A stretch of 64,000 nt of DNA, taken from Trypanosoma brucei. Taxonomy: Eukaryota. This document shows, piece by piece, positions 2,115 to 41,481 of the stretch; the stretch's first letter is position 1, and every line of letters begins with the position of its first letter. The notes beneath the pieces were generated by a model. The model did not search any database. It was given only the letters and a program-made list of their open reading frames with translations, and was not told where the DNA came from. The translations under genes and the position numbers were made by a program. Location: NCBI GenBank assembly GCA_000002445.1, contig CM000208.1:832001-896000 (forward strand). Reading direction: 5' to 3'.

Positions 2115-2405
2115 AATGTCTAAGGTTGCAGCAAGCAGGAAAAAGAAGAAAAGAAAAGAGAAGAAAAGACACGAATGTTGCTCCGCGGCGCGAAAGTCTG
2201 AATATGAAACACATCAAGTATCAGAGTGATATCACAAGTTGGCGGAGTCGGGACTATTAAAGCATTGCTCTACATTTTTTCCCCCTCATCCGTGTTGTTG
2301 TGCCCTCGGTATCTTTTATAACCATTAGCGACAATGTGCGCGTGGGGGCAAATGGGTGGAGGGAAAGAACACGAGTATGTATATTTATATTTATTTATTT
2401 TATTG

Positions 2406-2441
<36 letters not shown>
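2406..2441. repeat. (TA)11 followed by (TG)7 microsatellite; further (TA)n tracts at 725-744, 1276-1300, 2990-3006, 4310-4330, 12527-12545, 18307-18320, 22545-22570, 29307-29330, 45652-45670, 46097-46116, 52335-52350
   Basis: Read directly. Nearly every intergenic spacer carries at least one (TA)6-12 tract. Confidence 0.9.
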
Positions 2442-16518: not shown

Positions 16519-18144
16519 ATGACAGAGGTAGCCGTTGATTGTTTCCCGACTCCAACCGTCAGCAGCCACAGTTTATCCAACGAAGTGAACAACAACGGGC
16601 GTGGTGGAGTGTCCTCTGGTGGCATGGTAGCGGTGGAAGACAAAGTGGCGCTGTTGCTGGCCGGTGCGAGGAAGTTGCTTGAGGAACCAACACCATCATT
16701 ATCGTGTCATGCCGAAGAGGTGTTGCCATGTGATGATGAGGAGGAGTGCCGACGCCGCTTGCGGTTTCTAGAGGCAGCCCATGCTTTTGTGGAGCAACAA
16801 CATGTAACTCAGAGGTATTTGAAGCGGGCTGTGGTTTCCTCACGATCAATAGGTGTGAACGCATGGACCAGCGAACAGACGCGAGGGGGCTTGCCTCACT
16901 GTTCAGCACGCGACTTGCCAGCAGTCGCTGTTATGATAGATGGGGAGCTAACTGATTGTGAAACTGAGGAGTGCCCAACAAGACACAACTTGTGCTTTTC
17001 CACTGTCTTACACATAAAGCCACGCGGTTTGTGGGCGAAGGACGCGGCTGTGCGGCGTCAGGGTCAGTACTGTAAGCAGTGCTTGGATCCGTTACACAGG
17101 TATAAGATCCCTCTTCCTGTGTGGAAGGAGGCTCGTTTTTGTTATTTCACTGGGATGTACTACTGTAATATGTGTAACTCTAGCCGCTATTCGGTGATTC
17201 CTGCGTTTGTTTTGAAGAAGTGGGATTTTAAACCGCGACCAGTGTGCAACGACGCGTATGAATTCTTGAAGTATCACCATAAGCATCCAATTTATCGCGT
17301 GTGTGCTCTTAATCCACGACTATACGAGCGAGTGGCACTGCTGCGGGTGGCCCGGAACCTGCGATCGCAGTTGATGAAATTGCGTGATGTGGGCATGAAG
17401 TGTGCTGTGCTGCGTCACCTTCTCTACCTTCACGACGCTCCTGTCGAACTTGAAAGGGACAGCAATCGTCGCCCCTCCAGAACCACAACCAACGCCTCAG
17501 CTACCAACCATGTAGCCACCTTTGTTGCCAGTGATGGTGATGCCGCCTCGTTTGCCGCTGATTGCTACGTGCCACGCACCCGGCGGTATTTATTGGAGAA
17601 CTGTGAACTTTGGTCATTATCTGACCTTGAGGATGTACGCCGTGGGCAGTTGTTGTTCCGTCAGGAGAGCGCTGGGCGCACAATGGCTTTTATAAAAGAT
17701 ACTTCCCTTATCTCGCAGTTGGCGGCATACAGCAAAGGTACAGCCGCTTTGTGTGGTGAATGCGATACGACTGTTTACCTCAAGCAAGTGCGATCTCGAA
17801 TTTTACGGCACATTCTTGTACACAGTTGTGCGACTTGCCTTGTTAATAGTGTTGACGTGTGTAGCATCTGTTGCCCTGCGGAGGTGGCTCAAAAGTTAGA
17901 GTGCATTAATGAGCAAACTCGAGGAGGTACACCGTTCGGAACCTGTGAGCATTTTTTTGGCTCGTTGATCAAAGATGTTTCAGTGTTGCCTTTTCTTGTT
18001 TATGTTTTCGACACATTGCATGTGTTCTGTTGCACCGGGTGTGGTAGTGCTTATCACAGACGCTGTTTTAAGGAAATGCAACATACCAAGGGCGATTTAA
18101 CATGCTGCCCGCGCTGCAGAGCAACACAGTTGATAAAAGAGTGA
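16519..18144 (+). CDS. Rubicon-homology (RH) domain / DEF8-like cysteine-rich zinc-finger protein, 541 aa
   Basis: FCYFTGMYYCNMCNSSRYSVIPAFVLKKWDFKPRPVCNDAYEFL matches the DEF8/Rubicon/PLEKHM1 RH-domain core ([44 protein letters not shown]). The C-terminal Cys/His cluster (CATCLV...CSICCP...CCTGCGSAYHRRCF...CCPRCRA) matches the RH zinc fingers. Confidence 0.8.
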   Translation: MTEVAVDCFPTPTVSSHSLSNEVNNNGRGGVSSGGMVAVEDKVALLLAGARKLLEEPTPSLSCHAEEVLPCDDEEECRRRLRFLEAAHAFVEQQHVTQRYLKRAVVSSRSIGVNAWTSEQTRGGLPHCSARDLPAVAVMIDGELTDCETEECPTRHNLCFSTVLHIKPRGLWAKDAAVRRQGQYCKQCLDPLHRYKIPLPVWKEARFCYFTGMYYCNMCNSSRYSVIPAFVLKKWDFKPRPVCNDAYEFLKYHHKHPIYRVCALNPRLYERVALLRVARNLRSQLMKLRDVGMKCAVLRHLLYLHDAPVELERDSNRRPSRTTTNASATNHVATFVASDGDAASFAADCYVPRTRRYLLENCELWSLSDLEDVRRGQLLFRQESAGRTMAFIKDTSLISQLAAYSKGTAALCGECDTTVYLKQVRSRILRHILVHSCATCLVNSVDVCSICCPAEVAQKLECINEQTRGGTPFGTCEHFFGSLIKDVSVLPFLVYVFDTLHVFCCTGCGSAYHRRCFKEMQHTKGDLTCCPRCRATQLIKE

Positions 18145-19198: not shown

Positions 19199-22039
19199 AT
19201 GAGTACCGAGAACGAGGGCGAATCAAAAGAAAACCCCTCGTATCTCACTGTAGAATTAGAGCATGTCGGCCATGTCTCCATCGATGCAATTGAGCACCAC
19301 TACATGGAGTTGCAAAAGGAACTAGCGATGGAGCCACATTTGCGACCACTGCGTGAGGAATATGAGAAGATCCACCGCCTCCTCCGTAAAAGTCACGATG
19401 GGGAGAAGCGCTTGATGGCAAAGATAAAGGAATTAGATCATGACTTGATTACACATGCGGCGAACGTTGAAAGTGCGCTGAAACTCGCTCGGCAAGATGA
19501 GGACGTGATTGAGGCCCTGAGGAGGGAAATAGAAAAGGCCTGGTCACTTGCTGACAGCGCGCATGCTCGTGAAAAGGAAACGCGGGAACAAATACAGGAG
19601 TTGCGCCAGCAGGTGGTGCGTCTTAATGGGTTAGTGGATAAAAACACAAGCAGTACATTGGGACAGGAAAACTTTCTCCGCGATCTTATTAAGGCGAAGA
19701 AAGAGTTTGAAAACGAGCGTCTAATGGCACAAGCTAAGGCGGAGCGGCTCGTGGATGAACGGCTATTTGCTCAGAGGAAGATGCACAAACTGCGAGAGGA
19801 TAGTGAATGTGTGCGGCATAGCCTTGAGAACACGCTCAAGAACTATGAAGGCTGTCTACGTAACCTCTCCGATACCAAACGGGATCGCGAGAGTCTGGAG
19901 CAGCAGGTGCGGGAGTACCGTGTAGAAGCGGATGAACATTTGAAAGAGATAGCAAGCGTCCGTCAATCGGTGGCCGAGTTAGCAAAAGAGGAGGAAAAGC
20001 TGAAAGCACTTGCGCTTTCAGAACGGGATTCTGTGGGGCAATTAGCTAAGCAATTGGAAGAACAACAGGACCGATTTAAGAAAGAGGCTGACAAACTTGC
20101 CGCTGTTGAGGCGCACAATGCAGAAATGAAGCAGGAGATACCAAAGATGAGAATGACGCTAAAGGGCCGGCATGCAGAGGTGGAGCGACTTGCCTTATCC
20201 TTACGAAAGGCTCGTAAAGGAGCCGGGGTCCAGCAGACCGAAATAGACAAGCAGATGCAGACGAGGGCTTCGCTGATGGAACAAACGGAGAAAATGCACA
20301 CCGCTATTGAAGAGCTTCTGCGTACATTAGACGACCACGTCAAAGCGTTGCATGATGAAGAGGTCCGATTGAAGGGAGCCATGCCCATAAAAACAAAACT
20401 CCTCACTGAAAATTCGCGCGTTGATAGTGAGAAGGCTATGATGGAGGGCCAGCGGATGCTGGAAGAGGGTAAGCGACGTAACTTAACCCAACAACTAGAA
20501 AAACTTCTTCGGGATAACGAAACAATGCGAAAGAAAATATTTGAACTGGAACAAAATCAGGCGAAAATCCTTGACAATGGACAGCGAGAGGCTTTGCAGT
20601 ATCATCGGGTGCTTGAGCAAACACGTAAGCAACAAGGACAGGCTAAGTTACTGCAGCAGCAGTTGGAGGACAATGAAAAGCGTCTTAAAGCGCAACAGGA
20701 TTTGCTTGACCGAGTCTCCGCAGACCGCGCACGAACGGAAAAGCGGTTGAAGGAAAGTGAACTTGAGTGTTCTGGGTTGAAGCAGCGGTATAATCACAAT
20801 GGGGAGGAGATTCAGTTGTTGAAGATGCAAATTATAGGCAAGGAGGGCGCACTTTGCCGCATTCATATGGTACGCAAGCAACTTCAGCGTGACATCGCCA
20901 ATGCTGAGGAGCGCGCAAGCCACCTGAAGGAAGACGGTACGAGCGCTACCAACCGCTACGAGACGCTAAAGGGAGAGGTAAAGCAACTCAGTCACTTAAT
21001 AGCCGAGTGTGACGCAGAGAAGAGTAAGTACCAATCTAAATTTGCTGCACTTGTTAACGAACGGAATGTACTTGCTACCCAGTTGGTTCGTCGTAACGAA
21101 GAGCTGCGCCTCCTCCACAGCAAAATACGTTTGCAGGAGTGTAGTATTGAAAAAGGTGCGGAGGACTACAACAAGCGTGTGCGGGCTGTGATGGGGAAGC
21201 GAAGTGAACTTGAAGAGCTGCGACTGCGTTGTCGAGTTGCCCTTGCCCGCATGCTTCACGCGGAAAAACTGAGACGGCGAAAACAAAAAATCGAGCGTGA
21301 CCTCTTTACTGAAAAGCGTCGCTCTCGTGCCCTCGCTGACGAGCTTCAACGTCCTGTAAATGTGCACCGATGGCGGCGACTTGAAGGCAATGCCCCCGAG
21401 ATTCTCGACGGCATTTACAAAGTTCACACTCTAGAACGACAGATACTTAAGAAACAAGATTTGCTCGTGGAAAAGACAAAACAATTGGCTGCTCGCAATG
21501 CAGAATATGAGACTGTTAGGAAAAAGCTTGCCGAACTTCAAGGCCCGGAGGTAGCGGGGGAGTTGAGCTTATATGACGAAAACTTGCAATGTCGTCGCGA
21601 ACAAATACGGGGTCTTGACACCGAACTTCAGGAGGTTGAACAGCACGTGGACGTAGTGGCTGAGGAAGTGAAGCAACTGACAGTAGAGTTATGTGAGGTA
21701 AAGCGGCGGTATTATAATGCGAAGCATAAGAATGACCTGCTCCGCCGTGAGCAAGGTGCTTTCCGCGCCATGTGGGGTGGGTCTTCAGCGGTCGCTAGGA
21801 CTGCACTCGCCGCAATCGAAAACGCTTCGGAGCGCCGGCAGCTCCAGCAACAAGGATCAATTTCCAGTCGTCGGCAACCGCTATGGCGCACGCGGGCGCA
21901 AAAGCGCCGCGAGCAAATTAAACAGGAGGAACAAATCGTTCAGGTACTATCGACTGGTGCACCAGCGCCAAGTTTTCCTCTTCAAGTCCCACCAGGTCAG
22001 CGCATTTTCTTGGGGGGTGGTTTTGCGCTAACTCGGTGA
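19199..22039 (+). CDS. large coiled-coil protein (946 aa), probably cytoskeletal or flagellum/basal-body associated
   Basis: Heptad-rich E/K/R/L/Q composition continues for about 850 aa (strings like LKEIASVRQSVAELAKEEEKLKAL). No enzymatic motifs. Confidence 0.75.
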   Translation: MSTENEGESKENPSYLTVELEHVGHVSIDAIEHHYMELQKELAMEPHLRPLREEYEKIHRLLRKSHDGEKRLMAKIKELDHDLITHAANVESALKLARQDEDVIEALRREIEKAWSLADSAHAREKETREQIQELRQQVVRLNGLVDKNTSSTLGQENFLRDLIKAKKEFENERLMAQAKAERLVDERLFAQRKMHKLREDSECVRHSLENTLKNYEGCLRNLSDTKRDRESLEQQVREYRVEADEHLKEIASVRQSVAELAKEEEKLKALALSERDSVGQLAKQLEEQQDRFKKEADKLAAVEAHNAEMKQEIPKMRMTLKGRHAEVERLALSLRKARKGAGVQQTEIDKQMQTRASLMEQTEKMHTAIEELLRTLDDHVKALHDEEVRLKGAMPIKTKLLTENSRVDSEKAMMEGQRMLEEGKRRNLTQQLEKLLRDNETMRKKIFELEQNQAKILDNGQREALQYHRVLEQTRKQQGQAKLLQQQLEDNEKRLKAQQDLLDRVSADRARTEKRLKESELECSGLKQRYNHNGEEIQLLKMQIIGKEGALCRIHMVRKQLQRDIANAEERASHLKEDGTSATNRYETLKGEVKQLSHLIAECDAEKSKYQSKFAALVNERNVLATQLVRRNEELRLLHSKIRLQECSIEKGAEDYNKRVRAVMGKRSELEELRLRCRVALARMLHAEKLRRRKQKIERDLFTEKRRSRALADELQRPVNVHRWRRLEGNAPEILDGIYKVHTLERQILKKQDLLVEKTKQLAARNAEYETVRKKLAELQGPEVAGELSLYDENLQCRREQIRGLDTELQEVEQHVDVVAEEVKQLTVELCEVKRRYYNAKHKNDLLRREQGAFRAMWGGSSAVARTALAAIENASERRQLQQQGSISSRRQPLWRTRAQKRREQIKQEEQIVQVLSTGAPAPSFPLQVPPGQRIFLGGGFALTR

Positions 22040-22849: not shown

Positions 22850-24520
22850 ATGCGAGGGTGTGCAAAAGGCATCGGTGCTATATTTGCTGCTGATGCCTCG
22901 AATCATGTAAGGGGGAAATCCGTGAACGCGGATGAGAGCTGCTTTGGTGTTTTTCAAAATATGCATATCAACCCTTTTCCCGTTCGCGCCGCTATTGACA
23001 TTGGTACTGGTGGAATGATTACCATGGTGGTTGCTCGCGTTGACGCCGCAGCCAACGCCGTGCGCAATTTCATGTATCAGACGCAGCTACCGTTACACCT
23101 GGAATCTGTAGCCGCAGGGTTGGGCGACTCATCATCGTTCGTTCTTTCCGAAGCAACTCGAGCGGACATACGCAATAAAATGCGTGTGTTTCACGGTGCA
23201 CTCCGTCGTGATAATTATGATGGTCTTAGCGAACGTGCCGCTGTTATGTCGTGGCCGCTGTGCGAAGCCGCTGATGCACTGGCGTTAGCTGAGGACCTAA
23301 CGCGTGAGTTTAAGGTGGATGTGCGTGTTCTGGGGAAAACGTTTAATGTAAGTATGCCGTTCTGTGGTTCAGTTGGGTTATCAGCTAATGCGAGCCAGGA
23401 ATCAATGGAGGTTGACGTGCGGCGGGGTAGGCGCTGTTCTAATGCCTGCACCACTGCTGTTACTGGCGGCAGTGAAAGCGGTTCTGTTCAGTCTTTCTTG
23501 CATCATACTAATCGTCGTCGGAAGGAAAGGCAAGCGAAATTAGATTCACAGCGAGAGGTGCGTACTGTTACTGATGGTGATCGTGTGCCCAATGTACCGG
23601 CAGCTCAGCAGATGGAGCAGTTGGCCTTCCTTGCGCACGCCGCTGTGAGCAAGTGTGTTGCTCCGCAACGCTTGCTCATTCTTGCGGAGGATTGTCATAA
23701 AGGAATATGTGTGCTAGGCGCAGATACAGCTGAACCCGAAGAAGTAACCGACGACGAGACGGCGGCTAACACTAAAGGTATCAACAATAATAGCAAGGAT
23801 GCCGTTACGCACCAAGGAGTTGGGTCACCCACTGGATTACTTGTACATGCGTTGCCGGTCGATTTAGCGATGGCACACCGACTATTGGTTACGACGGTGC
23901 AACGTCGGTCGCAAACTACGGATGAAGGCGCCAACCAACGAAGCCCCAACCCTGTTCTTCGTGAGGAGTTTAGGAGGTTGCGCTGTCTGTTGGAGGAGGC
24001 AATGCACCACACATTGCCTCAGTGGGTTCTTGATAAGTCAAACACTGGTGGGGTCATATGTGGGTCAAGTTTTAACGGTGGCGTGCTAAACGTCGCTGCA
24101 CGAATAGCCCAGCGGTCTAGTGTCTCATTGGATCACCTCGAGACGCATGCGGAGATGCACTATTGTGGTTTAACGGATGTTCTGATGTCAGTCAACTATC
24201 CTAACGCGGCGACGGTAATACCCTGTGCTGCGCTGGCCAGTGCATTGTTACGGTCATTAGATGCACAGCGGTTTGAATATCTACCCGAGGTTCATATTCC
24301 TGCTGCTCTCCTCCTTCAGCCCTCACTGTGGACGTACACAAGGCGTGATCAGGTACGGAAGGCATTGAAGCAAAAACCATTTTACGCGGCCGGGAGCCTG
24401 CGGCGCACATTTCAGCGTCCCCACGCACGTGAAAATCCAACAGCTGCTCCAACGGCTTCGTGGCAGAAGAACAAGGAGTGGAATGCACTCTCATACGACA
24501 ATAGCACGAAAGGTACTTGA
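22850..24520 (+). CDS. ASKHA-fold (Ppx/GppA exopolyphosphatase-like) domain protein, 556 aa; alternative start ATG at 22961
   Basis: The N-terminal motif AAIDIGTGGMITMVVARVD resembles the Ppx/GppA phosphate-1 motif (AAIDLGSNSFHMVIAR). The rest is a divergent long extension. Confidence 0.5.
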   Translation: MRGCAKGIGAIFAADASNHVRGKSVNADESCFGVFQNMHINPFPVRAAIDIGTGGMITMVVARVDAAANAVRNFMYQTQLPLHLESVAAGLGDSSSFVLSEATRADIRNKMRVFHGALRRDNYDGLSERAAVMSWPLCEAADALALAEDLTREFKVDVRVLGKTFNVSMPFCGSVGLSANASQESMEVDVRRGRRCSNACTTAVTGGSESGSVQSFLHHTNRRRKERQAKLDSQREVRTVTDGDRVPNVPAAQQMEQLAFLAHAAVSKCVAPQRLLILAEDCHKGICVLGADTAEPEEVTDDETAANTKGINNNSKDAVTHQGVGSPTGLLVHALPVDLAMAHRLLVTTVQRRSQTTDEGANQRSPNPVLREEFRRLRCLLEEAMHHTLPQWVLDKSNTGGVICGSSFNGGVLNVAARIAQRSSVSLDHLETHAEMHYCGLTDVLMSVNYPNAATVIPCAALASALLRSLDAQRFEYLPEVHIPAALLLQPSLWTYTRRDQVRKALKQKPFYAAGSLRRTFQRPHARENPTAAPTASWQKNKEWNALSYDNSTKGT

Positions 24521-24870: not shown

Positions 24871-25920
24871 ATGCTTCTTATAGTGTTCGTAGTCGGATTT
24901 CTGCTCCTTCTTACTGCGTTCGTTGCACTGCAACTGCGGAGGAGTCAACAGTTCCCGACATTTAGCGATGCAACCCCATCTCGAGTTGCGGCGAGGCGTT
25001 CAGAAACGCGACGGAGTCAATACAATGACGGAGATTATTGGAGTAATGAAAGTTCTGATGAGGGTAGCGACGACGATGATAATGATGACTGTGAAGTAGG
25101 CCACAAACGTGAAGAGAGGCGTAAGCTGCGCGGTGGAACCAGTGGCAGCGCCGGACCATTGCGGCACCGCCGCACGAGGCGCGGTGCAGGGAATGCTGCT
25201 GAGGCAGACGGGGACGGTGAGGAAGATAAAAATGGTTCTCAGACGAAATTATCTCGATTACAAAGAAAGAAACAAGAAAAAGAGAGAGAACGACAGGAGC
25301 GGCAGCAGGCGCAGGAAGCACTGCTAGAGAATCGGCGAGTGAAGCAGGAGGAGGAGCAGCGGCAACAGAAAGACCGCGAGCGTGAAGAGAGGGAGCGAGA
25401 GATTGCCGAAGAAGCAGCACTGCAGGAGTTGCGCGAGGAAAAAAAGCGTCAAGAAGATGAGGAGTATGCAAAGTGGGTTGAAGGCATTGGGGTGGTAGAG
25501 CGCGGTGAAATTGGAGACGAGGAGCGAAAGAAGCATGACAATCTTGTCAAGTACTTAATCACCATGGCGGGTAACGGCGGTGAGCGCCAACAGCAGCGGG
25601 TGATTGATGCAGAAAACTTTGGTGAGGGTGAGAAGGTCGGTGACGAGACAATAACAAGGGGTACCGAGTCAAGCAGCCGTGGAAATATACTGATTCTCAA
25701 CGACGTCGCACGAACGCATGGGTTGTCAGTGGAAGTCACTGTTCAGGTGATAGAAAAGCTTTTGGAGGACGGTGTTATCAGCGGTGTTTTTGATGACCGT
25801 GGAAAGTTTGTTATGCTTTCCGAGGAGCACTATAAGCAAATCGCAGAGTTTGTTAAACTCCGCGGCCGCGTTTCGATGAAGGAGCTTGCACGAGAGTGTA
25901 ACAGGATAATCATGTTGTGA
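24871..25920 (+). CDS. DDRGK1: DDRGK-domain protein (DDRGK1/UFBP1 homologue; ER-anchored UFMylation adaptor), about 349 aa
   Basis: ORF-track start 24865 is GTG; the ATG is at 24871. There is an N-terminal TM anchor (MLLIVFVVGFLLLLTAFVALQL), a long charged E/R/K/Q-rich helix, and a C-terminal winged-helix region with DDRGK motif (DGVISGVFDDRGKFVMLSEEHYKQIAEFVKLRGRVSMKELARECNRI). This closely parallels human DDRGK1 ([42 protein letters not shown]). Confidence 0.8.
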   Translation: MLLIVFVVGFLLLLTAFVALQLRRSQQFPTFSDATPSRVAARRSETRRSQYNDGDYWSNESSDEGSDDDDNDDCEVGHKREERRKLRGGTSGSAGPLRHRRTRRGAGNAAEADGDGEEDKNGSQTKLSRLQRKKQEKERERQERQQAQEALLENRRVKQEEEQRQQKDREREEREREIAEEAALQELREEKKRQEDEEYAKWVEGIGVVERGEIGDEERKKHDNLVKYLITMAGNGGERQQQRVIDAENFGEGEKVGDETITRGTESSSRGNILILNDVARTHGLSVEVTVQVIEKLLEDGVISGVFDDRGKFVMLSEEHYKQIAEFVKLRGRVSMKELARECNRIIML

Positions 25921-26528
25921 CGAGAACCCCAGTCGTTGTTGACGGTCCTTCTGTTGTGCCATGATTTGGTTATTTGTACGCGACGTCTTGCCAAACCTCC
26001 TTATCTGGAAGCAGAATCCATAAACACTGAGAGGGAAAGCGGCGGGTCCGTTACTCGCCTTGTTGTTGTTCCCCAATGGCTGAATCTCTGCGGGGAAATG
26101 CACATGTTTGTGTTTGTAACCCTCTTGAGTTCACGGGTAAGTGATTGGTGGCGTTCGAAGTTTTGCCTTGAATTTTTCCCATGTGGTGCCCACAAATCCT
26201 AACCCTTCACCTTTCTTGCTCTGACATTTGTGTAAAGGAAAGTAAGCGTATACTCAGTCACTCCTCGCGTAAGATCACAAGTGGTCAAAAAATAAAAAGA
26301 ATACATATATTTGCACGTATCGTTGTCCTATTTGTGCTGAGCGTATTTGTAGAAGCGTACTGCGTAAACTGGAAACCGTGAGGAAATACTCGTTTAGGAG
26401 ACTGCTCTGCCAGAGGGGAGGGGGAAGAGTGAAGAGTGCTGACCGAGTGTTATCATCATCATTGTGTCAGCTTGTAAGGATACATTTAATTTTTTTTATT
26501 ATTGGAGCACCGTTAGCGTTACGACCAA

Positions 26529-29204
26529 ATGTCCTCACAGGACAGTGAAAGCTGGGGGAATTCGAGACAACATTATCAGTATTCGGATGCTTCCGAGGAG
26601 CATAGGCCAGAGGCGACAAAATTAAAATCTGAATGTTTTCAAAACGCTGGTCGCACCTCTCCAAATCGTCGCCGTGACTCCCCAGCGATACAGCAGGAAA
26701 GTAGTGACTTTGCGACAACATCAGATTCGCCTGTGCCTTGCCACTACAGCCAACGAGGGCCTGCAAGTCAAAACGCACAGCAGAAGGGGAAGGATAGAGG
26801 TGATGTTTTTTGCTCGACGGTTACGTCTTCAGACCTGTTTCCCACTGTTGAACTCGGCCCACGGATGCTTCCGACTAACTCCACGTCAATGAAAGGAGGA
26901 CGTTACGCCGCAGGCGACAGGTTACCCCAGACGCAGGAAACAGATAAAACTGACAAACCTGTACGTAACAGGTCTGAGCGCTCCGAAGGAACACCTCTTC
27001 CCAACTGTGGAACCGCACTTCGCGATGGTTCAAGACATTCTCATTCGCCAGCGAGTTCCTGCAGAGGGAACGACAGCTTAGTAACAAACGGGACTGCTAG
27101 CCAGAGAGAAACAAATGAAGAATCGTGCGATGTGTGTGGCAGCTGCTCAACACACTACGTGAGCGTTAGTCTGGGGTTGAGTGAGTGGGAGACGCTTTCT
27201 CCAAATCAAATAAAACTGCGGCAGTGTTTTGATGCGCCTATTGATTCGATCGCTGTGCCCTCTAGCGAAACGCACCGTTCATTAGCACATGAACAGCAGC
27301 GACAGCTACTGGAAACGATTATGCAAAAGCATTCAAGGAAACGGATCAAGAGGGTGACGGATTATATCCTTGGGCCCATCTGTGGTGAGGGTACATTAAG
27401 CACTGTTCGAGACGCGATTAACATATCATCAAACAATGTTGATCCGTTTCGGTTTCAACGTGTAGCCATCAAGTGCTATAAACAATCCGATTCTAAACTT
27501 AGCGAAGGGGCAGGCAGCTCTGATTGTTCACAACTGTCTTCACTGGCGTCTGCAACGAGGCGTCAGCAGGACGAGCTGCAGCGTTTGCGTGAGGCTGAGA
27601 AACGAAATTTGCAGTGCTTCTACTCCACAAATATTGTCCGCAGTATTGACGTCTTCTCGCATGAGGGGAAGCAGTACATCGTGCTACCTGCGGCTATTTG
27701 TAACTTGGAACAACTGGTGCAACTCGCCAAATGCCAGAACCGTTGTGCTTCTTGTGATTCAGTGAGAGGCAAACGAAATATGATTCCATCTTCAAAGGAT
27801 GGAGTTGATGGCAGATTTGAATTGATGCCCTCTCTGGGGAAACCAGCAGGAAAGTTGCCCCAAAATGATGTCAGCCTCTGCACAGGCGCTGCGAGTTTGC
27901 AAAAAATGTCCCCATATAGGAAAGTTACCTCACTTTTTGCGGCGGAGGTGGTGAGGAGCATTATGAACCAACTGCTTCGCGGAGTTGCATATTTACACCG
28001 TCAGGGCGTAGCTCACAATGACCTGAAACCGCAAAACATACTTCTGTTTGCCGATGGCTTGGTAAAGATAGGCGATTTGGCGAGCGTGTCTGTGAACTAC
28101 ACTGGTCATGGAACTCCAATGTACTTGTCTCCAGAGATCTGTAGATATTTTTATGATGCGGGGAATGAGACGAACGGTAGGGTTGCAGTGGTGGATGCCC
28201 TCAAGAACGACATGTGGGGGTGCGGCGCCATCCTTTACTATCTGTTGACGGGGAACACCCTGTGGGAGGACGGAGCGAACTGCCAGAACGTATATCAATT
28301 ATATCGTATAATTGCGGAGCGGAACACGCCTGTTAGCCTTTCTCATATTAATATACCTGCGGAAACCGAGGATGAACTGATATCCCGTCTTACAGAGTCA
28401 GAGAATATTTCTTTTAGGGCCACGGGTGGGTTGCGTCGCCCAACCGCTTTTCCACACACATCTCTTTTACACTTGGCGGCGGGTTTGTTGGACGTCAATC
28501 CCGCTACGCGATTAACTGCTGAGGAGGCTGTTCGACACCCATCGCTGCAAGCCCCTCCGGTAGATGATGTGCATGATGCCTTTCCAACTGATATGACACA
28601 AGGGGATGTGATGAAGGTGATGTTGGAGTCGCCGTATTACCAGCAGCTCATTAAGTGGGATCGGGAACGACATTTACAGTTTGCAGCGGAATGTTCCCAT
28701 GTTTTGGGTTTGCAGATACCAGAGGAGATATGCGTTTCAGCTCAAAAGCGTGCGGCCGATGGTTGTGGCATGGAGGCGGATGTGACGGACCCGCTGCTGA
28801 GATTACCAAGTTCAATTTACCGTTTAGTGGGGACTGTAAACCCTTCACTTTTCCTCCCCACGGATGAGTTTCATCACTACTTGAGGAAGTTGAAGGTGCC
28901 AAACTATGATGTATCGTCTCTAAGGGCAAATCCCTCTGCTGTGAAGATGATGGAGGATTATCTTCATACCGTGATGATGGAGTGCGGCTACACCGGAAGC
29001 GTCAATACACGGGAGCGGAGCGGGTCGAAAGAAGACCAAAACGGCATAAAGCTTTCGACAAGTCAGCTGACAACACGCTCCAGGGAGGACACGTCGCATG
29101 GTTTGGCCACTTTTAAAGACGATGATCAACCAGAAACTTTGGATCGTGTCTTAACTGACATGCCAAGTGACGGTCGCCCTAACTTCTGCTGCATTATCAT
29201 GTGA
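26529..29204 (+). CDS. atypical serine/threonine protein kinase with a 270-aa low-complexity N-terminal extension and insertions, 891 aa
   Basis: Catalytic loop HNDLKPQNILL, VAIKCYK lysine motif, and SPEIC in the APE position are present. DFG is replaced by DLA (KIGDLASV), and the glycine loop is degenerate (GPICGEGTLSTV). Confidence 0.8.
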   Translation: MSSQDSESWGNSRQHYQYSDASEEHRPEATKLKSECFQNAGRTSPNRRRDSPAIQQESSDFATTSDSPVPCHYSQRGPASQNAQQKGKDRGDVFCSTVTSSDLFPTVELGPRMLPTNSTSMKGGRYAAGDRLPQTQETDKTDKPVRNRSERSEGTPLPNCGTALRDGSRHSHSPASSCRGNDSLVTNGTASQRETNEESCDVCGSCSTHYVSVSLGLSEWETLSPNQIKLRQCFDAPIDSIAVPSSETHRSLAHEQQRQLLETIMQKHSRKRIKRVTDYILGPICGEGTLSTVRDAINISSNNVDPFRFQRVAIKCYKQSDSKLSEGAGSSDCSQLSSLASATRRQQDELQRLREAEKRNLQCFYSTNIVRSIDVFSHEGKQYIVLPAAICNLEQLVQLAKCQNRCASCDSVRGKRNMIPSSKDGVDGRFELMPSLGKPAGKLPQNDVSLCTGAASLQKMSPYRKVTSLFAAEVVRSIMNQLLRGVAYLHRQGVAHNDLKPQNILLFADGLVKIGDLASVSVNYTGHGTPMYLSPEICRYFYDAGNETNGRVAVVDALKNDMWGCGAILYYLLTGNTLWEDGANCQNVYQLYRIIAERNTPVSLSHINIPAETEDELISRLTESENISFRATGGLRRPTAFPHTSLLHLAAGLLDVNPATRLTAEEAVRHPSLQAPPVDDVHDAFPTDMTQGDVMKVMLESPYYQQLIKWDRERHLQFAAECSHVLGLQIPEEICVSAQKRAADGCGMEADVTDPLLRLPSSIYRLVGTVNPSLFLPTDEFHHYLRKLKVPNYDVSSLRANPSAVKMMEDYLHTVMMECGYTGSVNTRERSGSKEDQNGIKLSTSQLTTRSREDTSHGLATFKDDDQPETLDRVLTDMPSDGRPNFCCIIM

Positions 29205-29336: not shown

Positions 29337-31909
29337 TTGTGTCTACGAGGTTCTGTTTTCTTAGCATCCCCTTCTCATCTTTGTGTTTGATTTAGCAGTT
29401 TTATGCTGGTGGTGCAGTTTTGGTACGTCTTTTTCTTCCATCTGTTATGTGAGCCATGTGAGAGTGAAAGGGATCGGAATTTATTTTGCAGGAATTGTTG
29501 CAGATACGAAGCGGCTAAACGTTGATACGTTACGGTGTGTTGGTTGTAAAATGAGGGGTAGCTGCTGATCTTCACTTGTGCATGCTTCGTTGCTTGCGCC
29601 CTTTTTTTTCTTTTTTCCCACAAATACTTTATGTTTCCTACTTTTAGTGGGTGCATCGCCACCGAGGTGCATTTTGCAAAGAGAAAAAGAAAAGACTGTA
29701 AAGTGGCTGTGCCTCACTTTTAAGTGGGAGCAAAATGGTTTGTTGTTAGTTAATGTACATGCTGAGGGAACTGTGTAGATGAGGGGGGAAATAGTCACAT
29801 GAGTAGGTTGTAATAACGGAACTAAGTTTTTGTAAACTCTTGTGGCGTTAGGGTAGAAAGAGAGGGGGAAATAAAGAATTACTTAAAATAATACAACTTT
29901 AGAGCACCATATACCAAGAATCCACAACTAGGGAAGATGCTTATTTAGTTTCCTTTTTTTTTAAATTTGCGCATGTGTTTGCTCTATTGATTTGAAGGAA
30001 GAAGTGAGGAAATGTATGCTAATAAATTTGTTACCTATGAATGTATGGAGGAGGGGTGTGGGGAGAGAAAATGCGTAAGTATTGTTCGCTCGTGGTATCG
30101 AGTACAGCACCGTGGTAGGCATCCTTCTATCGTGTTTATACTCGTAAAACTTATTTACTTTTTTGTTTATATATTTTGCTTATTGTTTTTTTTTAAAATA
30201 TTCTTCCTACTTCATCTCCGATATGTCATAACAATGAATCAGTGGAGGTAGGACTACCATATGCGCATACTCATGCAACCGTAGTACATATATGTAATTA
30301 TAAGTATGATATAATACTATTAACTATTTCACGCATAACTCGTGCAGTTGGTCACAATAATCTTCCAGACCATTTTTTTATTTTTCTTTTCAAATAGCCT
30401 TACCACTCGCGACATCCACTGAGACATCGAGCCAACTATTATTGTTATTATTTTTATCATAAACGTTACTATATTTATTCATCTACTTGGTTTGATTTCT
30501 TTCAGTTTTGATTCATTATGTTTATTGCTTTGGTGGATAGGTAGCATTTGCCTTACCTCCTTGCATATATGTTTAATGAAAAGAAAAAATAAAAGAAAAA
30601 AAAGCAACTGGAAGCTCCACCATTCAAATATCTCTTCCATCTTTTCTTTTCTGATGGTAATTTTATATTTAAAAAAAATGTGTTTTCTCCCTCCCTCCCC
30701 CTTTCCCTTTTTCTAGCAATCGATGTTTCTTCTCTTCTCTTTTCTTTTTTTTGTTTTTACCCGTCTCTGATTTTTTTTTTTTGAGGGAAAAATTTAGGGT
30801 GTCGGTATATTTACTCCCCTCTTCTCTCCCTTCCTTTCCTTTCCTTTCTTTCATTCTTTTGTTTTACAGGTGATCAACATAAAAAAATAGGACGATTTAG
30901 AAGTTTTAATGAGTCTGTGTCCAATATTTTTATTGGAGATTTGCTGAAGTGGAAATACCAAATCACCCTTGTGAATGAGAGAAAAATGGCAAAATCAAAT
31001 ACAAAAAAGAAGAAAAAGCCAAAATCAAATACAACAAGGAATTAAATTTATTTGTTTATTTAAAGACTATATGGCTTCTGGTCCATGTGTCAGTTAAGGC
31101 GTGTGAGGAAATATTAAATTGTGATGTATGATATCACATTATGGTGCGTGCGAACTGGACCATGTTATGCTCATTTTCTTTTATTTTTAATGAGGGGAGA
31201 TCATTTAATACTCCATTAATTTTCCTCAGTGATGTAATTTGCGTGGGCAGCTCTGCTTTATGTCGTGTTTATCATGGAAGCGTGTGTTTGTGTGTGGGAC
31301 ACAACGACAAAATATGATCCGTGTGGTTAAATACTGATACAAATGTATGCACATATGTAATATCGTTACTTAAAGTTGTGATAATTTAGTTGGAGTTTAG
31401 TAGAGATTTATTTCTTTCGTTTTCTCCCCCTTCATCTGGTGTGTTCCTGTTGTTGTTTCCCTATTTTTTTTTGTGTGGTAGCAGGCATATTCCAGCCCTT
31501 TTATTCTTTATTTTTATGTCGGAGAACCGCTTACTGGTGTCTGTTTTTTTTTAATTTTTAAATTTCGCACACACTATTGTTATCTAAGTTAATTCTTACC
31601 TCCTTGCTCTCTTTATTAATTTAATTTTTTTTTTGTGTCGAAAAGCGGTGAAACCGTCTGGAGTCATAAAGATGCATCTGCAAGCCCGGAAGTATTCCCT
31701 TTCTTCTCCGTATGTTTCTTGTTGTTCGTTTTTCTGCTGCTGCTGTTGCTTACTGGAAAGAGGGAAAAGAAAATTTAAAAAAATTACTCTTAACCTACTT
31801 TGGGGAAATAAGCAAACTAACTATACAGAGAAAGCGAAGAAGAAGAAATACAAAGAGGGAAAAAGAAAAGGGGGGGAAAAAAAAGAGGTGACAAGTGCGT
31901 CAAAAAGGG

Positions 31910-33547
31910 ATGTGCCAAACTTTAACTACGGACGGTCTGTCAGGTGAGGTGAGGCCCGCTTTCACTGAAGAGGAACAAAATCCCAACAGATGCAGCGATG
32001 ACTCCGGTGATGGCGTCAATTCAATGGAAACTCGAATGAAGGGAGATCCATGGCGTTTTGCTGTTGCTGCTATATTTTGCCTATTGTCCATTTCAAATGC
32101 CATGCAGTGGATTGCATTTGCTTCAATATTCGATGAAACACGTACCTATTTCAATATGACTGCCGTGCAAGTGAACTACCTTGCAACAACATACGTCATC
32201 GCTTACGTTGTTGCTGTGTTCCTCAGTTGTAAGTTGTTTGAGGTAACTGGACTAAAAGCGGGAATCCTTATTGCGGCGACAGCCAATGCTATTGGTGCAA
32301 GTATTAAACTTGTTGCAGTGTATGCATGGCCACATATGATTCTTTTGTTTCTCGCCCAGGCCTTTAACTCTGTAACAGAAATTCTCACGATTGCAACCCC
32401 GCCACTCATTGCTAATCGATGGTTTCCCGTGGAGGAACGTGTGGCCGCCAACGCTGTAATGACCATTTGTCTCAATGTAGGTTGTGGTTTGGGTGCATTA
32501 ATTCCCGTTTTCTTCGTTAGTCCTGAGAAACAGGAACAGCGCCACTTTGCTGCTCTCTTTTGGTTTCAATTTGGTCTATGTGCCGGCACGTTTGCACTTA
32601 CCTTTATTATTCCCCAGCTCCCACGGCAATCACCAAGCTACGCTGCTGACAGACAACAGAAAATGGAGGCGAAACGTTTGAGAACCTTACGTGAACGCCA
32701 GAACCGTCAAAGTGGTGCCGGAGCTCCCGCTGAAACGCAACCACCACTTGAAGTAGTAGAGGATGATAGACTAAATATGTATGACGATGATGATGTCGAG
32801 TCTGTCGCAGAACCCATCAATGTCTTCTCCACGCTGGGGGACACTTTCCGAGCGATGAGAACTAATTCCTCCTTTGTTTTTCTCTCAATTGCAAGCGCCG
32901 CAGAACTCGGTCTCATTTGGTCCGTGGCGACGGTGCTTCCGCAGTGCCTTGTGCCATTTGGTGTAACTGGATCCGAATCGGGGTGGATAAGTTTCCTGAA
33001 TCTTGTACTTGGCAGTGTTATAGCCCCAATTGTCATGCATTACTTTGGCCAAAATTGGAGGCACAAGCAGTCACTGCTTGTTATCTCTATCATACTTGTT
33101 GTAAATGTTTGCGCTTTGTGCCTTTGCTACTATTTTGGTCCTTCTGGCGACGACCACCGTATTTACTATGTCGTAGTTGTATTCCTTCTTTGGGGTGGAG
33201 TAGCCGGGCTTTGCCAAAACTTCATGTTGCCCATCATGTTTGATTTCGTTGTTGAGTTAACTTTCCCTATGAGGGAGTCCACAAGCGCACCAGTACTGAC
33301 GTGGGCGGCATGTTTGTCTAATTTGGTGTTGACCGTAGTTTTTGGTGAAGTGCTTGGGGAGAATCCTACGCGAACTGATTCAGCAAAGGTGCTTCTGGGA
33401 ACCGTCATTGTGTGTATTATCGGATGCGTTGCGCTCGTGTTGGTTCGCCCTCTCAAGAGGAGGGAGGAATTTGAACATCGTATGGAAGAGTTGGATCGTG
33501 CGGCATTGCAACTTCCGCAAGATGCCTCACACGAGAGAGTCAGATGA
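31910..33547 (+). CDS. multi-pass membrane transporter, MFS-like (about 12 TM helices with a central hydrophilic loop); alternative start at 32024 (METRMKG)
   Basis: ORF-track start 31895 is GTG; the first ATG is at 31910. Two six-helix hydrophobic bundles are separated by a charged loop (residues about 250-300), the typical MFS topology. Confidence 0.65.
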   Translation: MCQTLTTDGLSGEVRPAFTEEEQNPNRCSDDSGDGVNSMETRMKGDPWRFAVAAIFCLLSISNAMQWIAFASIFDETRTYFNMTAVQVNYLATTYVIAYVVAVFLSCKLFEVTGLKAGILIAATANAIGASIKLVAVYAWPHMILLFLAQAFNSVTEILTIATPPLIANRWFPVEERVAANAVMTICLNVGCGLGALIPVFFVSPEKQEQRHFAALFWFQFGLCAGTFALTFIIPQLPRQSPSYAADRQQKMEAKRLRTLRERQNRQSGAGAPAETQPPLEVVEDDRLNMYDDDDVESVAEPINVFSTLGDTFRAMRTNSSFVFLSIASAAELGLIWSVATVLPQCLVPFGVTGSESGWISFLNLVLGSVIAPIVMHYFGQNWRHKQSLLVISIILVVNVCALCLCYYFGPSGDDHRIYYVVVVFLLWGGVAGLCQNFMLPIMFDFVVELTFPMRESTSAPVLTWAACLSNLVLTVVFGEVLGENPTRTDSAKVLLGTVIVCIIGCVALVLVRPLKRREEFEHRMEELDRAALQLPQDASHERVR

Positions 33548-35907
33548 GACTCGCTGATGTTGTGTTTAGTGAGGTGCTCCATACATCAAATAAATGAATA
33601 TTTATTAATTTATTATTGTTTATTTACGCGTTATATAAACCGAAGTGTTTGTTTTTGTATTTGTTTAAAACCGTTTGCTTATAGGGAGCAAATGGAGCAT
33701 GATGGAAGAAAAAAATAAATAAGGACACATAGTGAGACTGATTGTGCTGTAATTGTGCGGTTGTGTGTTTTCTGTCACATCTGAAGAAAAGATAAGGTTC
33801 TTCTATTTTTTTATTTTTTCTACCGAAAGGGCGTAGTTTCCAAACAACGGCGGCGGCCTTTTGCAGTTGTGGAAGAAGGTGGGAAGGGAGTGGGAGGGGG
33901 ACGAGGTGTGTTACTGCTTTTAGTGAGAAAATATATGAGCACCGCATATATATTCTACCTTACTTTTTTTTCTATTCTTTTCTTGTTGCCACTCGCTCGT
34001 GGACTGTTGTCTAAACACACAGACAAATGTATATAATATATATATACTTATATATTTATTAATTTATTTATAATTGTGTCTGTATTTATATGTATGTTTG
34101 GTAACTGATCATGTGAAAGGAGGAAAAGGGAGATACGGCGGTGGAAGAGGAGAACGAAATAATAGAACGAAAATAAATGAAAAAGGAAAGGAAAAATGGA
34201 CATGAAGTGAGGTGAGAGGCAAATCACATTAAATCGAACACGAAATTTAGTAGAGTTTGTCATTGTTTGTGTTAGGGTGCTTGGAGGGAGAAAAGAAAGG
34301 TTTTTTTTTGTAGTGGTAGGAATGTTATAAACAGCCAAAATACATTAAGTGTGCCTTGCGTTCTCAGTTCTCAAGGGATTAGCACATTTACCTTTTTTTC
34401 TTCGTTTTATTTTGTTATTTCATGTGTGAGCACTTGTTCTCCCTTTTTTTTTCCCGCTTTTTTTTCCTGGTTCCTTAACTAACTCTCGTCGGCAATTCAG
34501 TCCTCGGTACCAGAGTATTTTTTTTTAATTTTTAGATAGGTTACTAACCCTTAATTACCCTCCTTAGTGAATTTCTACTTTTGTTTGCTTTTTTTAAATA
34601 TTATCTTTCATTTTTATTTTTATTTTTTACAATGCGGCGGGCGATGATACAAAAAAAAAAGAATTTCTCTCCCATGCTTCTTTTACTGTTTCATGTGTCA
34701 ACGCTGTGATACGTTATTATTGTTATCCGTTTATGCTCACATTTAAGCAGACGTGTGAAAGAAAGCAAAAAGGAAAAAGAAGTTTGGTAAAATGTTTGTT
34801 GAACGCATGCTACTGTATAACTTTATTTCGCATATCTGCATTTATTAACTCGTTGTTTCTTAGATTATATATTTGGTTTCCTTTTTTGTCTTTTTCTTTT
34901 ATTAAAGGGTAAAGTTGTTGTTTGCTGTTGTTTAGAATCAACATTCTCCCCCTCCTCCCCTCAATACTTGAAGCGGTAGTCACTCTTCTTCCTTTCCTTT
35001 CATGGATTCGTGACAAAAAAAAATTACCTCATGGAGGTATTAAAATGCGAAATGTTCCGTTTCACTCATTTCACTTCTCTGTGAAATTTTGTGTGGATGC
35101 AGAGATTCCTGTTCTTGCGGATGCGGGTATATATATAAATATATTTATATTACTTCTGATTATTTAGCAAATTGATGCAAGAGCATCATGGCTTGTAAGG
35201 CATGACTGTTAAGATTTCCTTTCGTTTCCTAAAGTGAAAATAATGAATATATGCGTTATTCCATCACTGAAGCATAGACATGAGCAGGTGCCACATGTTT
35301 GGACTGTGCTTCAACATATTGTTTGCGTTTGAATGTCGATTGGAGGTTTCGTTATTTGATTTAAACCTCTGTAAATTCTATAGGGTCTTCACTTTAGCTC
35401 GGGCAGAACGCAGTGAAAGTGAGGGATCTGTGGAACGAGGCAGCCGGCACTGTGTGGTTGGTGGTTTCGGTTCCTGAAACTTTGTGTATTTAAAAAAAGG
35501 AAATCACACACATAATCGTCACTATGAGCAATACATAGTGTGGCAGGTGTGTGGTTATTTATTGATTTATTTCGAATCTTCAGTATATGCAAGTTTTTTG
35601 GTACTTAAACGTCGCTACAACTGAAGTAGAGGTTCCTTCGTTTCCCCAATATTAGCTGTGTGGAAGAGGAGTTACTCCATATGTGGTGTTACGTGAGGAT
35701 TCTTCGGTTAATGAATCCATTTATATTCGAGAAAAGAAGTGATTTTTTTTCTTTGCTTCGATGTCTGATCTGCTGCGCTGGAAACTAAGGGAGTGTGGTT
35801 GTTGTCGTACTTCTCACATATACCTTCCCTTTTTCACATTGTTTGTTGTTGTCAATTATCCATATCAAAAGTTAAAGCGCAGGTAATAATTACATTAATA
35901 AAATCTC

Positions 35908-41076: not shown

Positions 41077-41481
41077 GCACCCGTTTTGGCGGCTTCGGTC
41101 GCCGTTGGTGTAGCTGGACACGTGGACGGCAACTTTTATTTCTTCCCCCTTTTTTCGCTTTCATCATTTTATTTACTGCATATTGTTCTTCGTCTTTGGG
41201 ACCAATGTGGTCGCGAAACGCATGCCGTCCGTACGCACTGTCAGATACTCGCTGCTCTTGTTCAACCGTATTTCATTCAATGAAATTGTTGGCACTATAC
41301 CCAATTTGTAATAATGATAATAATTATAACGACTTCATGCTATAGATTCGAGGTGGATTAGTAGTTTCATACCCTCTGTCATTTTTTGTCGTGTTGCCGG
41401 AAGGCGAGACAGGTAACTCCAATTAATACGATTGTTCCAACACAATCGGGGCGCCAAAGCATCCAGTTTCGCAGAGCCGCT

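What the first reader, a model, noticed from the sequence alone, without database searches (positions are those of the whole stretch)
24871..25920. DDRGK1/UFBP1 (UFMylation ER adaptor) homologue with complete three-part architecture in a kinetoplastid
The protein has the N-terminal TM anchor, the long charged helix and the C-terminal winged-helix region carrying the DDRGK signature (VFDDRGKFVMLSEEHYKQIAEFVKLRGRVSMKELARECNRI), all in the order seen in metazoan DDRGK1. In trypanosomatids only the Ufm1-Uba5-Ufc1 core has been characterised to my knowledge, and there it was reported as mitochondrial. A bona fide ER-anchored adaptor would imply a fuller, possibly ER-phagy or ribosome-quality-control-linked UFMylation branch in these parasites.
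Basis: partly seen in the sequence, partly recalled or inferred. Interest (0 to 1): 0.55.

Follow-up and report, generated by a model that had tools for sequence, protein, structure and literature searches.

The report
Trypanosome DDRGK1/UFBP1 orthologue, already annotated
The gene is a real, complete Trypanosoma brucei orthologue of DDRGK1/UFBP1, the membrane anchor of the UFM1 ligase, but public databases already name it so and a published survey of eukaryotes covers this protein family, so it is correct but not new.

Summary
Observation confirmed. Window 24871-25920 (+) is a 349-codon ORF, 100% identical to T. brucei brucei TREU927 XP_822584.1 (UniProt Q38BR4, already named "DDRGK domain-containing protein 1").

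- **Family match:** Pfam PF09756 scores 88.8 bits against a 27.8-bit cut-off.
- **Structure match:** the seven best Foldseek PDB hits are all human DDRGK1 chains (rmsd 1.6-2.1 A over 76-78 residues, 41-42% identity).
- **Architecture:** all three parts are present in the metazoan order. These are an N-terminal signal-anchor helix (residues 1-25), a charged helix of about 78 residues (129-206), and a winged helix with the DDRGK loop plus two C-terminal helices.
- **Functional residues:** human R265 and K267 map to R310 and K312. The hydrophobic core of the UFM1-binding motif is kept (F196/V198 map to I206/V208).
- **Only departure:** a net insertion of about 35 residues, seen in trypanosomatids, in the first loop of the winged helix.

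The most likely function is an ER-anchored partner of UFL1 in UFMylation of the 60S ribosomal subunit. This is inferred, not shown.

Novelty is low. All trypanosomatids have it, a 2023 survey of 153 eukaryotes searched for DDRGK1, UFL1 and C53 and used T. brucei C53 in binding assays, and a trypanosomatid UFL1 homologue was mentioned in 2011. I could not test localisation or the presence of UFL1 in this genome.

The parts
24871..25920 (+). Complete CDS (349 codons plus stop) of the T. brucei DDRGK1/UFBP1 orthologue
   Evidence: ORF. 100% identical to XP_822584.1 / UniProt Q38BR4. PF09756 88.8 bits, E 4.5e-25.
24871..24945 (+). N-terminal signal-anchor transmembrane helix (residues 1-25), followed by RR
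   Evidence: Kyte-Doolittle 19-residue mean 3.09, the only hydrophobic segment. AF2 helix 2-25 with pLDDT 93-96. The anchor is conserved in 30 of 33 orthologues, with 0 K/R before it and 1-4 after.
24946..25245 (+). Disordered linker (residues 26-125) with an acidic patch (56-76, net charge -10) and basic R-rich stretches
   Evidence: AF2 segments 29-96 and 98-125 have pLDDT below 50. Composition. Four of the seven substitutions against T. b. gambiense fall here.
25255..25488 (+). [quoted passage not shown]
   Evidence: AF2 single helix 129-206 with pLDDT above 90. The segment 126-215 is 57% K/R/E/D. It aligns with the metazoan charged helix.
25465..25515 (+). UFIM-like segment YAKWVEGIGVVERGEIG (residues 199-215), at the position of the human UFM1-interacting motif (196-205)
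   Evidence: Translation. Mapping is human Y189 to Y199, F196 to I206, V198 to V208; K193 is not conserved (V203). Human motif defined in PMC10937380. UFM1 binding was not tested.
25558..25680 (+). Lineage-specific insertion (residues 230-270, net about 35 residues) between helix H1 and strand S1 of the winged helix
   Evidence: Present in all named trypanosomatid orthologues and P0029. Absent from P0028, P0031-P0037 and from metazoan sequences. AF2 extends helix H1 to residue 249, then gives a low-confidence loop (pLDDT 52-57). Translation.
25687..25818 (+). Winged-helix domain core (WH1', residues 273-316), including the DDRGK loop
   Evidence: AF2 elements E273-275, H276-283, H287-300, E304-307 and E312-316, pLDDT 92-97. 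Superposes on human DDRGK1 at rmsd 1.6-2.1 A.
25792..25806 (+). DDRGK motif (residues 308-312). R310 corresponds to human R265 (UFC1/CDK5RAP3 contact) and K312 to human K267.
   Evidence: Translation. The columns are invariant or at least 97% conserved in 34 sequences. The role of R265 is from PMC10937380.
25822..25914 (+). Two C-terminal helices (residues 318-348), counterpart of the partial winged helix pWH' that pairs with the UFL1 N-terminus in the human complex
   Evidence: AF2 H318-331 and H336-348, pLDDT 86-94. G332, R333 and V334 are invariant and S335 nearly so. Aligned to human 273-302 in PDB chains 8c0d_B and 8b9x_A. The composite-domain role is from PMC10937380.

Best explanation
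This is the Trypanosoma brucei orthologue of DDRGK1/UFBP1. The proposed mechanism has five steps.

1. The very hydrophobic N-terminal helix, with no charge before it and arginines after it, inserts as a signal anchor. The rest of the protein faces the cytosol, most probably from the ER membrane.
2. The disordered linker and the charged helix of about 78 residues act as an arm that reaches from the membrane to the large ribosomal subunit.
3. The two C-terminal helices complete a composite winged-helix domain with the N-terminus of UFL1. This tethers the scaffold-type UFM1 E3 ligase to the membrane.
4. The DDRGK loop (R310) helps to position charged UFC1 or C53.
5. The I-x-V segment at 206-208 binds UFM1 once it is attached to uL24/RPL26.

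Shown here: homology, domain order, fold, and conservation of the named residues. Inferred from the human system: membrane identity, UFL1 binding, UFM1 binding and the ribosomal substrate.
For: - **Family and sequence:** PF09756 at 88.8 bits against a 27.8-bit cut-off. phmmer E 1.8e-14 to 2.9e-13 to human DDRGK1 chains from the UFL1/UFC1 and 60S complexes. BLASTP against verified human DDRGK1 gives 36% identity over 106 residues, E 8e-19.
- **Structure:** the AF2 model has a TM helix, a disordered linker, a 78-residue helix, a winged helix and two C-terminal helices. The seven best Foldseek PDB hits are all human DDRGK1, at rmsd 1.6-2.1 A over 76-78 residues.
- **Residues:** R265, K267, F196 and V198 equivalents are conserved. 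G332, R333 and V334 at the start of the UFL1-pairing segment are invariant in the 33-sequence alignment.
- **Anchor:** it is conserved with the same charge asymmetry in 30 of 33 orthologues, and is more hydrophobic (3.09) than the human one (2.37).
- **Partners reported in the literature:** T. brucei C53 binds UFM1 and ATG8 in vitro (PMC10183829). A TbUfm1-TbUba5 structural study is cited in a 2026 review. [quoted passage not shown] A possible trypanosomatid UFL1 orthologue was noted (PMC3021533).
Against: - No localisation data could be retrieved. The TrypTag supplementary files held are cut and gave no hit.
- The only experimental work on the pathway in trypanosomatids places Ufm1, Uba5 and Ufc1 at the mitochondrion of Leishmania donovani.
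- I could not confirm UFL1 in this genome. The search with human UFL1 listed only its best 120 hits, all mammalian where named.
- K193 of the human UFM1-binding motif is not conserved.
- The insertion of about 35 residues lies next to the predicted UFM1 pocket and could alter it.
Confidence: 0.72

Rival explanations
1. It is a true DDRGK1 orthologue, but its anchor sits in the mitochondrial outer membrane or at ER-mitochondrion contacts. There it would serve the mitochondrion-associated UFM1 conjugation reported in Leishmania rather than ER ribosomes.
For: Leishmania Ufm1, Uba5 and Ufc1 and their candidate substrates were reported as mitochondrion-associated (PMC3021533; PMC7600729). An N-terminal anchor flanked by basic residues on its C-terminal side is also the layout of signal-anchored outer-membrane proteins (general knowledge).
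Against: The anchor is very hydrophobic (Kyte-Doolittle 3.09 over 19 residues, above the human ER anchor at 2.37) and long. From general knowledge, that favours SRP and ER insertion. All ribosome-ligase elements are conserved. T. brucei C53, the ER-phagy receptor partner, keeps UFM1 and ATG8 binding.
Confidence: 0.12
2. It is a true orthologue that works with UFL1 in a role independent of UFM1 conjugation.
For: [quoted passage not shown]
Against: Trypanosomatids do have UFM1 and active E1 and E2 enzymes. The UFM1-facing elements of this protein (I206, V208, R310, K312) are conserved.
Confidence: 0.1
3. The N-terminal hydrophobic stretch is a cleaved signal peptide and the protein is lumenal or secreted, or the gene is a decaying relic.
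For: The hydrophobic segment starts at residue 1.
Against: - The hydrophobic core is about 22 residues, long for a signal peptide, and has no small residues at -3/-1 before the RR (read from the sequence).
- The topology signal is conserved from metazoa to kinetoplastids.
- The partner-binding domains are cytosolic in the human complex.
- The ORF is intact and conserved in every trypanosomatid genus seen. Six of the seven differences from T. b. gambiense lie in the disordered linker or the insertion.
Confidence: 0.03

Closest known systems
Human DDRGK1 / UFBP1 (C20orf116), PDB 8ohd_C, 8qfc_D, 8c0d_B, 8b9x_A
   Same: - Same order of parts: N-terminal anchor, disordered linker, long charged helix, UFM1-interacting segment, winged helix with DDRGK loop, and C-terminal partial winged helix.
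- 41-42% identity and rmsd 1.6-2.1 A over the C-terminal 76-78 residues.
- R265, K267, F196 and V198 equivalents are kept.
   Different: - 35 residues longer (349 against 314 aa).
- Net insertion of about 35 residues between helix H1 and strand S1 of the winged helix.
- K193 is replaced by V.
- The protein ends 2 residues after the last helix, where human has a 12-residue tail.
- The linker carries a strong acidic patch.
- No experimental data exist.
DDRGK-domain proteins of other trypanosomatids (T. vivax, T. cruzi, T. rangeli, Leishmania, Leptomonas, Phytomonas, Porcisia)
   Same: All match PF09756 and are 280-370 aa in full-length models. They share the anchor, the helix, the insertion and the C-terminal RGRVS..E..RECNR motif. 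Identity to the first (T. brucei) sequence of the alignment is 37-49%.
   Different: The insertion and the linker vary in length and sequence between genera. Three of the 33 aligned models (two trypanosomatid, P0008 and P0013) lack the N-terminal anchor, apparently through truncated gene models.
Unnamed relatives from environmental and transcriptome assemblies (P0028, P0031-P0037), whose organisms are not given
   Same: They share the anchor, the charged helix, the UFIM-like I-x-V segment, the DDRGK loop and the RECNR C-terminus.
   Different: They lack the insertion of about 35 residues, so the insertion is a derived feature of trypanosomatids.

Membership tests
DDRGK1/UFBP1 (Pfam PF09756) | Match to the DDRGK-domain HMM above the curated gathering score | tested here: met
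   88.8 bits against a 27.8-bit cut-off, E 4.5e-25. Two stretches, the best covering residues 273-347 and profile positions 113-187 of 188.
DDRGK1/UFBP1 (Pfam PF09756) | C-terminal winged helix (WH1') plus partial winged helix (pWH') with the fold of human DDRGK1 | tested here: met
   AF2 pLDDT is 92-97 over 271-340. The top seven Foldseek PDB hits are all human DDRGK1, at rmsd 1.6-2.1 A over 76-78 residues. The next hits, the mouse homologue 1wi9 and then MarR and PCI winged helices, are at least 1000-fold weaker.
DDRGK1/UFBP1 (Pfam PF09756) | DDRGK motif with the Arg (human R265) and Lys (human K267) | tested here: met
   D308-D309-R310-G311-K312. The columns are conserved in 33-34 of 34 sequences.
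DDRGK1/UFBP1 (Pfam PF09756) | Single N-terminal transmembrane anchor with the bulk of the protein cytosolic | tested here: met
   One hydrophobic segment at residues 1-22 (Kyte-Doolittle 3.09) with no charge before it and RR after it. AF2 helix 2-25. The same pattern is seen in 30 of 33 orthologues. This is an in-silico result only.
DDRGK1/UFBP1 (Pfam PF09756) | Long charged helix between the anchor and the winged helix | tested here: met
   AF2 helix 129-206 with pLDDT above 90. The segment 126-215 is 57% charged residues.
DDRGK1/UFBP1 (Pfam PF09756) | UFM1-interacting motif (human 196-205; K193, F196 and residue 198 important) | tested here: inconclusive
   The hydrophobic positions are kept (F196 to I206, V198 to V208, Y189 to Y199) but K193 becomes V203. 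The motif definition is from PMC10937380. Binding was not tested.
DDRGK1/UFBP1 (Pfam PF09756) | Forms a composite winged helix with the N-terminus of UFL1 | not testable with these tools
   No multimer prediction is available and the T. brucei UFL1 sequence could not be obtained. G332, R333 and V334 at the start of the pairing segment are invariant.
UFM1 ribosome E3 ligase (UFL1-UFBP1-CDK5RAP3) system | UFL1, CDK5RAP3/C53, UFM1, UBA5 and UFC1 encoded in the same genome | tested here: inconclusive
   From the literature: TbC53 was used in pulldowns, a TbUfm1-TbUba5 study is cited, and a possible trypanosomatid UFL1 was noted. My own UFL1 search returned only mammalian sequences in its 120 listed rows. 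No partner is encoded in this 64-kb window.
UFM1 ribosome E3 ligase (UFL1-UFBP1-CDK5RAP3) system | ER localisation and UFMylation of uL24/RPL26 | not testable with these tools
   No localisation or conjugation data were found. The reported Leishmania pathway is mitochondrion-associated.

The most novel reading that the evidence does not exclude
In trypanosomatids the conserved UFBP1 anchor has been retargeted, fully or partly, to the mitochondrial outer membrane or to ER-mitochondrion contacts. This would link a canonical UFL1-UFBP1 ligase to the mitochondrion-associated UFM1 conjugation reported in Leishmania. The insertion of about 35 residues beside the UFM1 pocket could contribute to altered substrate choice.
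Probability: 0.1. Interest if true: 0.6.

Novelty: already known. Interest (0 to 1): 0.2.

Why it matters
Tagging and knocking out this gene would test whether trypanosomes run the canonical ER-ribosome UFMylation pathway, which releases and recycles 60S subunits and feeds ER-phagy through C53. The alternative is the mitochondrion-associated pathway described in Leishmania, and the two may coexist. That is a modest open question in parasite cell biology.

The homology itself adds nothing new. The protein is already named in UniProt, and DDRGK1 was among the proteins searched for in a published survey of 153 eukaryotes. The insertion in the winged helix is a small structural variant of unknown consequence.

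Tried and rejected
1. **UFL1 in T. brucei.** Of 1312 significant hits only the best 120 are listed, and all the named ones are mammalian, so the search says nothing about trypanosomes. The representative-library and fold-library routes would be swamped in the same way, so I did not spend them.
2. **Literature on UFL1 or DDRGK1 in trypanosomes.** No experimental study of DDRGK1 turned up. One search was badly designed and uninformative.
3. **TrypTag localisation.** The supplementary tables held are cut. There was no hit for 'DDRGK' or for five guessed Tb927.10.33xx identifiers. I did not establish the gene's TriTrypDB identifier.
4. **NCBIfam.** Only sub-threshold, composition-driven matches to charged or TM-rich bacterial proteins, for example AuxB at 19 bits against a 300-bit cut-off. 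I rejected these as noise.
5. **eL24 and TRASH-domain PDB hits** (E 0.11-0.25) fall on the charged helix. I rejected them as low-complexity matches.
6. **Overlapping ORFs on the minus strand** (24962-25471, 25449-25739, 25726-26103). They have no support, and every ORF in the window with a family match lies on the + strand.
7. **Partner genes nearby.** None of the neighbouring large ORFs is a UFMylation component.

Full report
**1. Observation**

The window carries an ORF on the + strand from 24865 (GTG) or 24871 (ATG) to the stop at 25918-25920. From the ATG it encodes 349 residues. An exact-sequence look-up shows this product is identical, end to end, to T. brucei brucei TREU927 XP_822584.1/EAN77756.1, which is UniProt Q38BR4, and to T. 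equiperdum SCU66772.1. It lies on a 4,054,025-base record. From my own knowledge, not tested, that length suggests chromosome 10.

The window is therefore Trypanosoma brucei. The 11 large ORFs with a family match all lie on the + strand, as expected for a polycistronic unit.

**2. Homology**

- Pfam PF09756 (DDRGK domain) matches at 88.8 bits against a gathering score of 27.8, E = 4.5e-25.
- phmmer against all PDB chains finds human DDRGK1 from the UFL1/DDRGK1/UFC1 crystal structures and the 60S-bound cryo-EM structures at E = 1.8e-14 to 2.9e-13. The mouse homologue 1wi9 follows at 2.4e-5.
- BLASTP against human DDRGK1 gives 36% identity over 106 residues, E = 8e-19. My typed copy of the human sequence is 100% identical to 8ohd_C.
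- An AlphaFold2 model built on a 33-sequence alignment has mean pLDDT 75. The structured parts score 90 or more and the linker below 50.
- Foldseek against the PDB puts seven human DDRGK1 chains first, with E from 3.5e-7 to 2.1e-6. The C-terminal 76-78 residues superpose at 1.6-2.1 A with 41-42% identity. Generic MarR and PCI winged helices follow at E above 1e-2.
- NCBIfam gave only noise.

**3. Anatomy**

| Residues | Feature |
|---|---|
| 1-25 | Single transmembrane helix. Kyte-Doolittle mean 3.09 against 2.37 for the human anchor. No K/R before it, RR after it. |
| 26-125 | Disordered linker with an acidic patch (56-76, net -10) and R-rich stretches. |
| 129-206 | One continuous charged helix. 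|
| 199-215 | YAKWVEGIGVVERGEIG, at the position of the human UFM1-interacting motif. |
| 213-249 | Extended first helix of the winged helix. |
| 250-272 | Low-confidence loop. |
| 273-316 | Strand-helix-helix-hairpin core with the DDRGK loop. |
| 318-348 | Two helices ending two residues before the stop. |

The anchor and its charge asymmetry recur in 30 of 33 orthologues. The three exceptions look like truncated gene models.

The elements of human UFBP1 are defined in Makhlouf et al. 2024 (PMC10937380). These are the long helix, the UFIM at 196-205, WH1' with the DDRGK loop whose R265 contacts UFC1 or CDK5RAP3, and a C-terminal pWH' that forms a composite winged helix with the UFL1 N-terminus.

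The residue mapping is Y189 to Y199, F196 to I206, V198 to V208, R265 to R310 and K267 to K312. K193 maps to V203 and is not conserved. G332, R333 and V334 at the start of the UFL1-pairing segment are invariant across the 33-sequence alignment.

**4. The one departure**

Compared with human, trypanosomatid proteins carry a net insertion of about 35 residues (T. brucei 230-270, window 25558-25680) between helix H1 and strand S1 of the winged helix. It is present in Trypanosoma, Leishmania, Leptomonas, Phytomonas and Porcisia, and in one unnamed sequence. It is absent from a set of unnamed environmental relatives (P0028, P0031-P0037) and from metazoa.

Its sequence varies between genera. Two of the seven substitutions between T. 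b. brucei and T. b. gambiense fall in it, four in the linker and one in the winged helix. It looks like a tolerated loop, but it sits next to the predicted UFM1 pocket.

**5. Most likely mechanism**

This section is inference from the human system. The anchor inserts with the C-terminus in the cytosol. The linker and long helix reach the 60S subunit. The C-terminal helices pair with UFL1. The DDRGK loop and the I-x-V segment engage UFC1 or C53 and UFM1.

Supporting context from the literature:
- T. brucei C53 binds UFM1 and ATG8 in vitro (PMC10183829).
- A TbUfm1-TbUba5 structural study is cited in a 2026 review.
- A possible trypanosomatid UFL1 orthologue was noted in 2011 (PMC3021533; repeated in PMC7029713).

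From memory, not tested here, Swiss-Prot also holds 'E3 UFM1-protein ligase 1 homolog' entries for trypanosomatids.

**6. What argues against or remains open**

- The only experimental work in trypanosomatids places Ufm1, Uba5 and Ufc1 at the Leishmania mitochondrion. A mitochondrial or dual anchor is therefore a live rival, although the very hydrophobic, long anchor favours the ER.
- I could not retrieve localisation data.
- I could not confirm UFL1 in this genome.
- No partner gene lies in the window.

**7. Comparison and novelty**

Every sequence and fold criterion for membership of the DDRGK1/UFBP1 family is met. The UFM1-binding motif is only partly conserved, and the interaction and localisation criteria are untestable here.

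The identification is not new:
- UniProt names this exact protein DDRGK domain-containing protein 1.
- Orthologues in all trypanosomatid genera carry the same name and the precomputed PF09756 hit.
- Picchianti et al. [quoted passage not shown] The per-species panel is an image I could not read, so the T. brucei DDRGK1 call itself is unconfirmed.

No experimental study of DDRGK1 in a kinetoplastid was found in the searchable library.

**8. Verdict**

The finding is already known at the level of annotation and comparative genomics, and the function is uncharacterised experimentally. Interest is 0.2.

Noticed in passing
window 25558-25680 (residues 230-270 of the DDRGK1 orthologue): A net insertion of about 35 residues splits the winged helix between helix H1 and strand S1. 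It is found in trypanosomatid orthologues but not in related unnamed environmental sequences or in metazoa. Its sequence varies between genera and its function is unknown.
   Followed up: partly
window 16519-18144 (+): A 541-aa ORF with a clear Rubicon Homology domain (PF13901, 101 bits). This domain is linked to autophagy and endosome regulation in other eukaryotes. It lies about 6.7 kb upstream of the DDRGK1 gene, and nothing suggests a functional link.
   Followed up: no
window 22850-24520 (+): The 556-aa ORF immediately upstream has no convincing family match. It gives only a borderline Aminotran_1_2 hit (21.5 bits against a 19.7-bit cut-off, E 1.6e-4) over 134 residues.
   Followed up: no
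window 26529-29204 (+) and 4665-5873 (+): Two protein kinases. The one immediately downstream of DDRGK1 is 891 aa, with the kinase-domain matches confined to residues 347-671 and long unmatched extensions on both sides.
   Followed up: no
window 58856-60763 (+): An ORF with N-terminal ankyrin repeats and a sub-threshold DHHC palmitoyltransferase match (20.2 bits against a 28.7-bit cut-off). It is possibly a divergent ankyrin-DHHC acyltransferase.
   Followed up: no
window 35908-38730, 47300-48697, 55320-57182, 61350-63416 (+): Four large ORFs (465-940 aa) have no Pfam match even at E = 0.01. They may be kinetoplastid-specific proteins.
   Followed up: no
window 2001-4000, 30001-32000, 34001-36000, 50001-54000: Markedly AT-rich stretches (GC 0.31-0.36 against 0.44-0.52 elsewhere) lie between the large ORFs. 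They are probably intergenic or UTR regions of the polycistronic unit.
   Followed up: no
window 8586-10697, 19199-22039, 41386-45300 (+): Other neighbours with clear family matches: an AMP-binding (acyl-CoA synthetase-like) enzyme, a CFAP58 coiled-coil flagellar protein, and a 1304-aa TLDc-domain protein.
   Followed up: no
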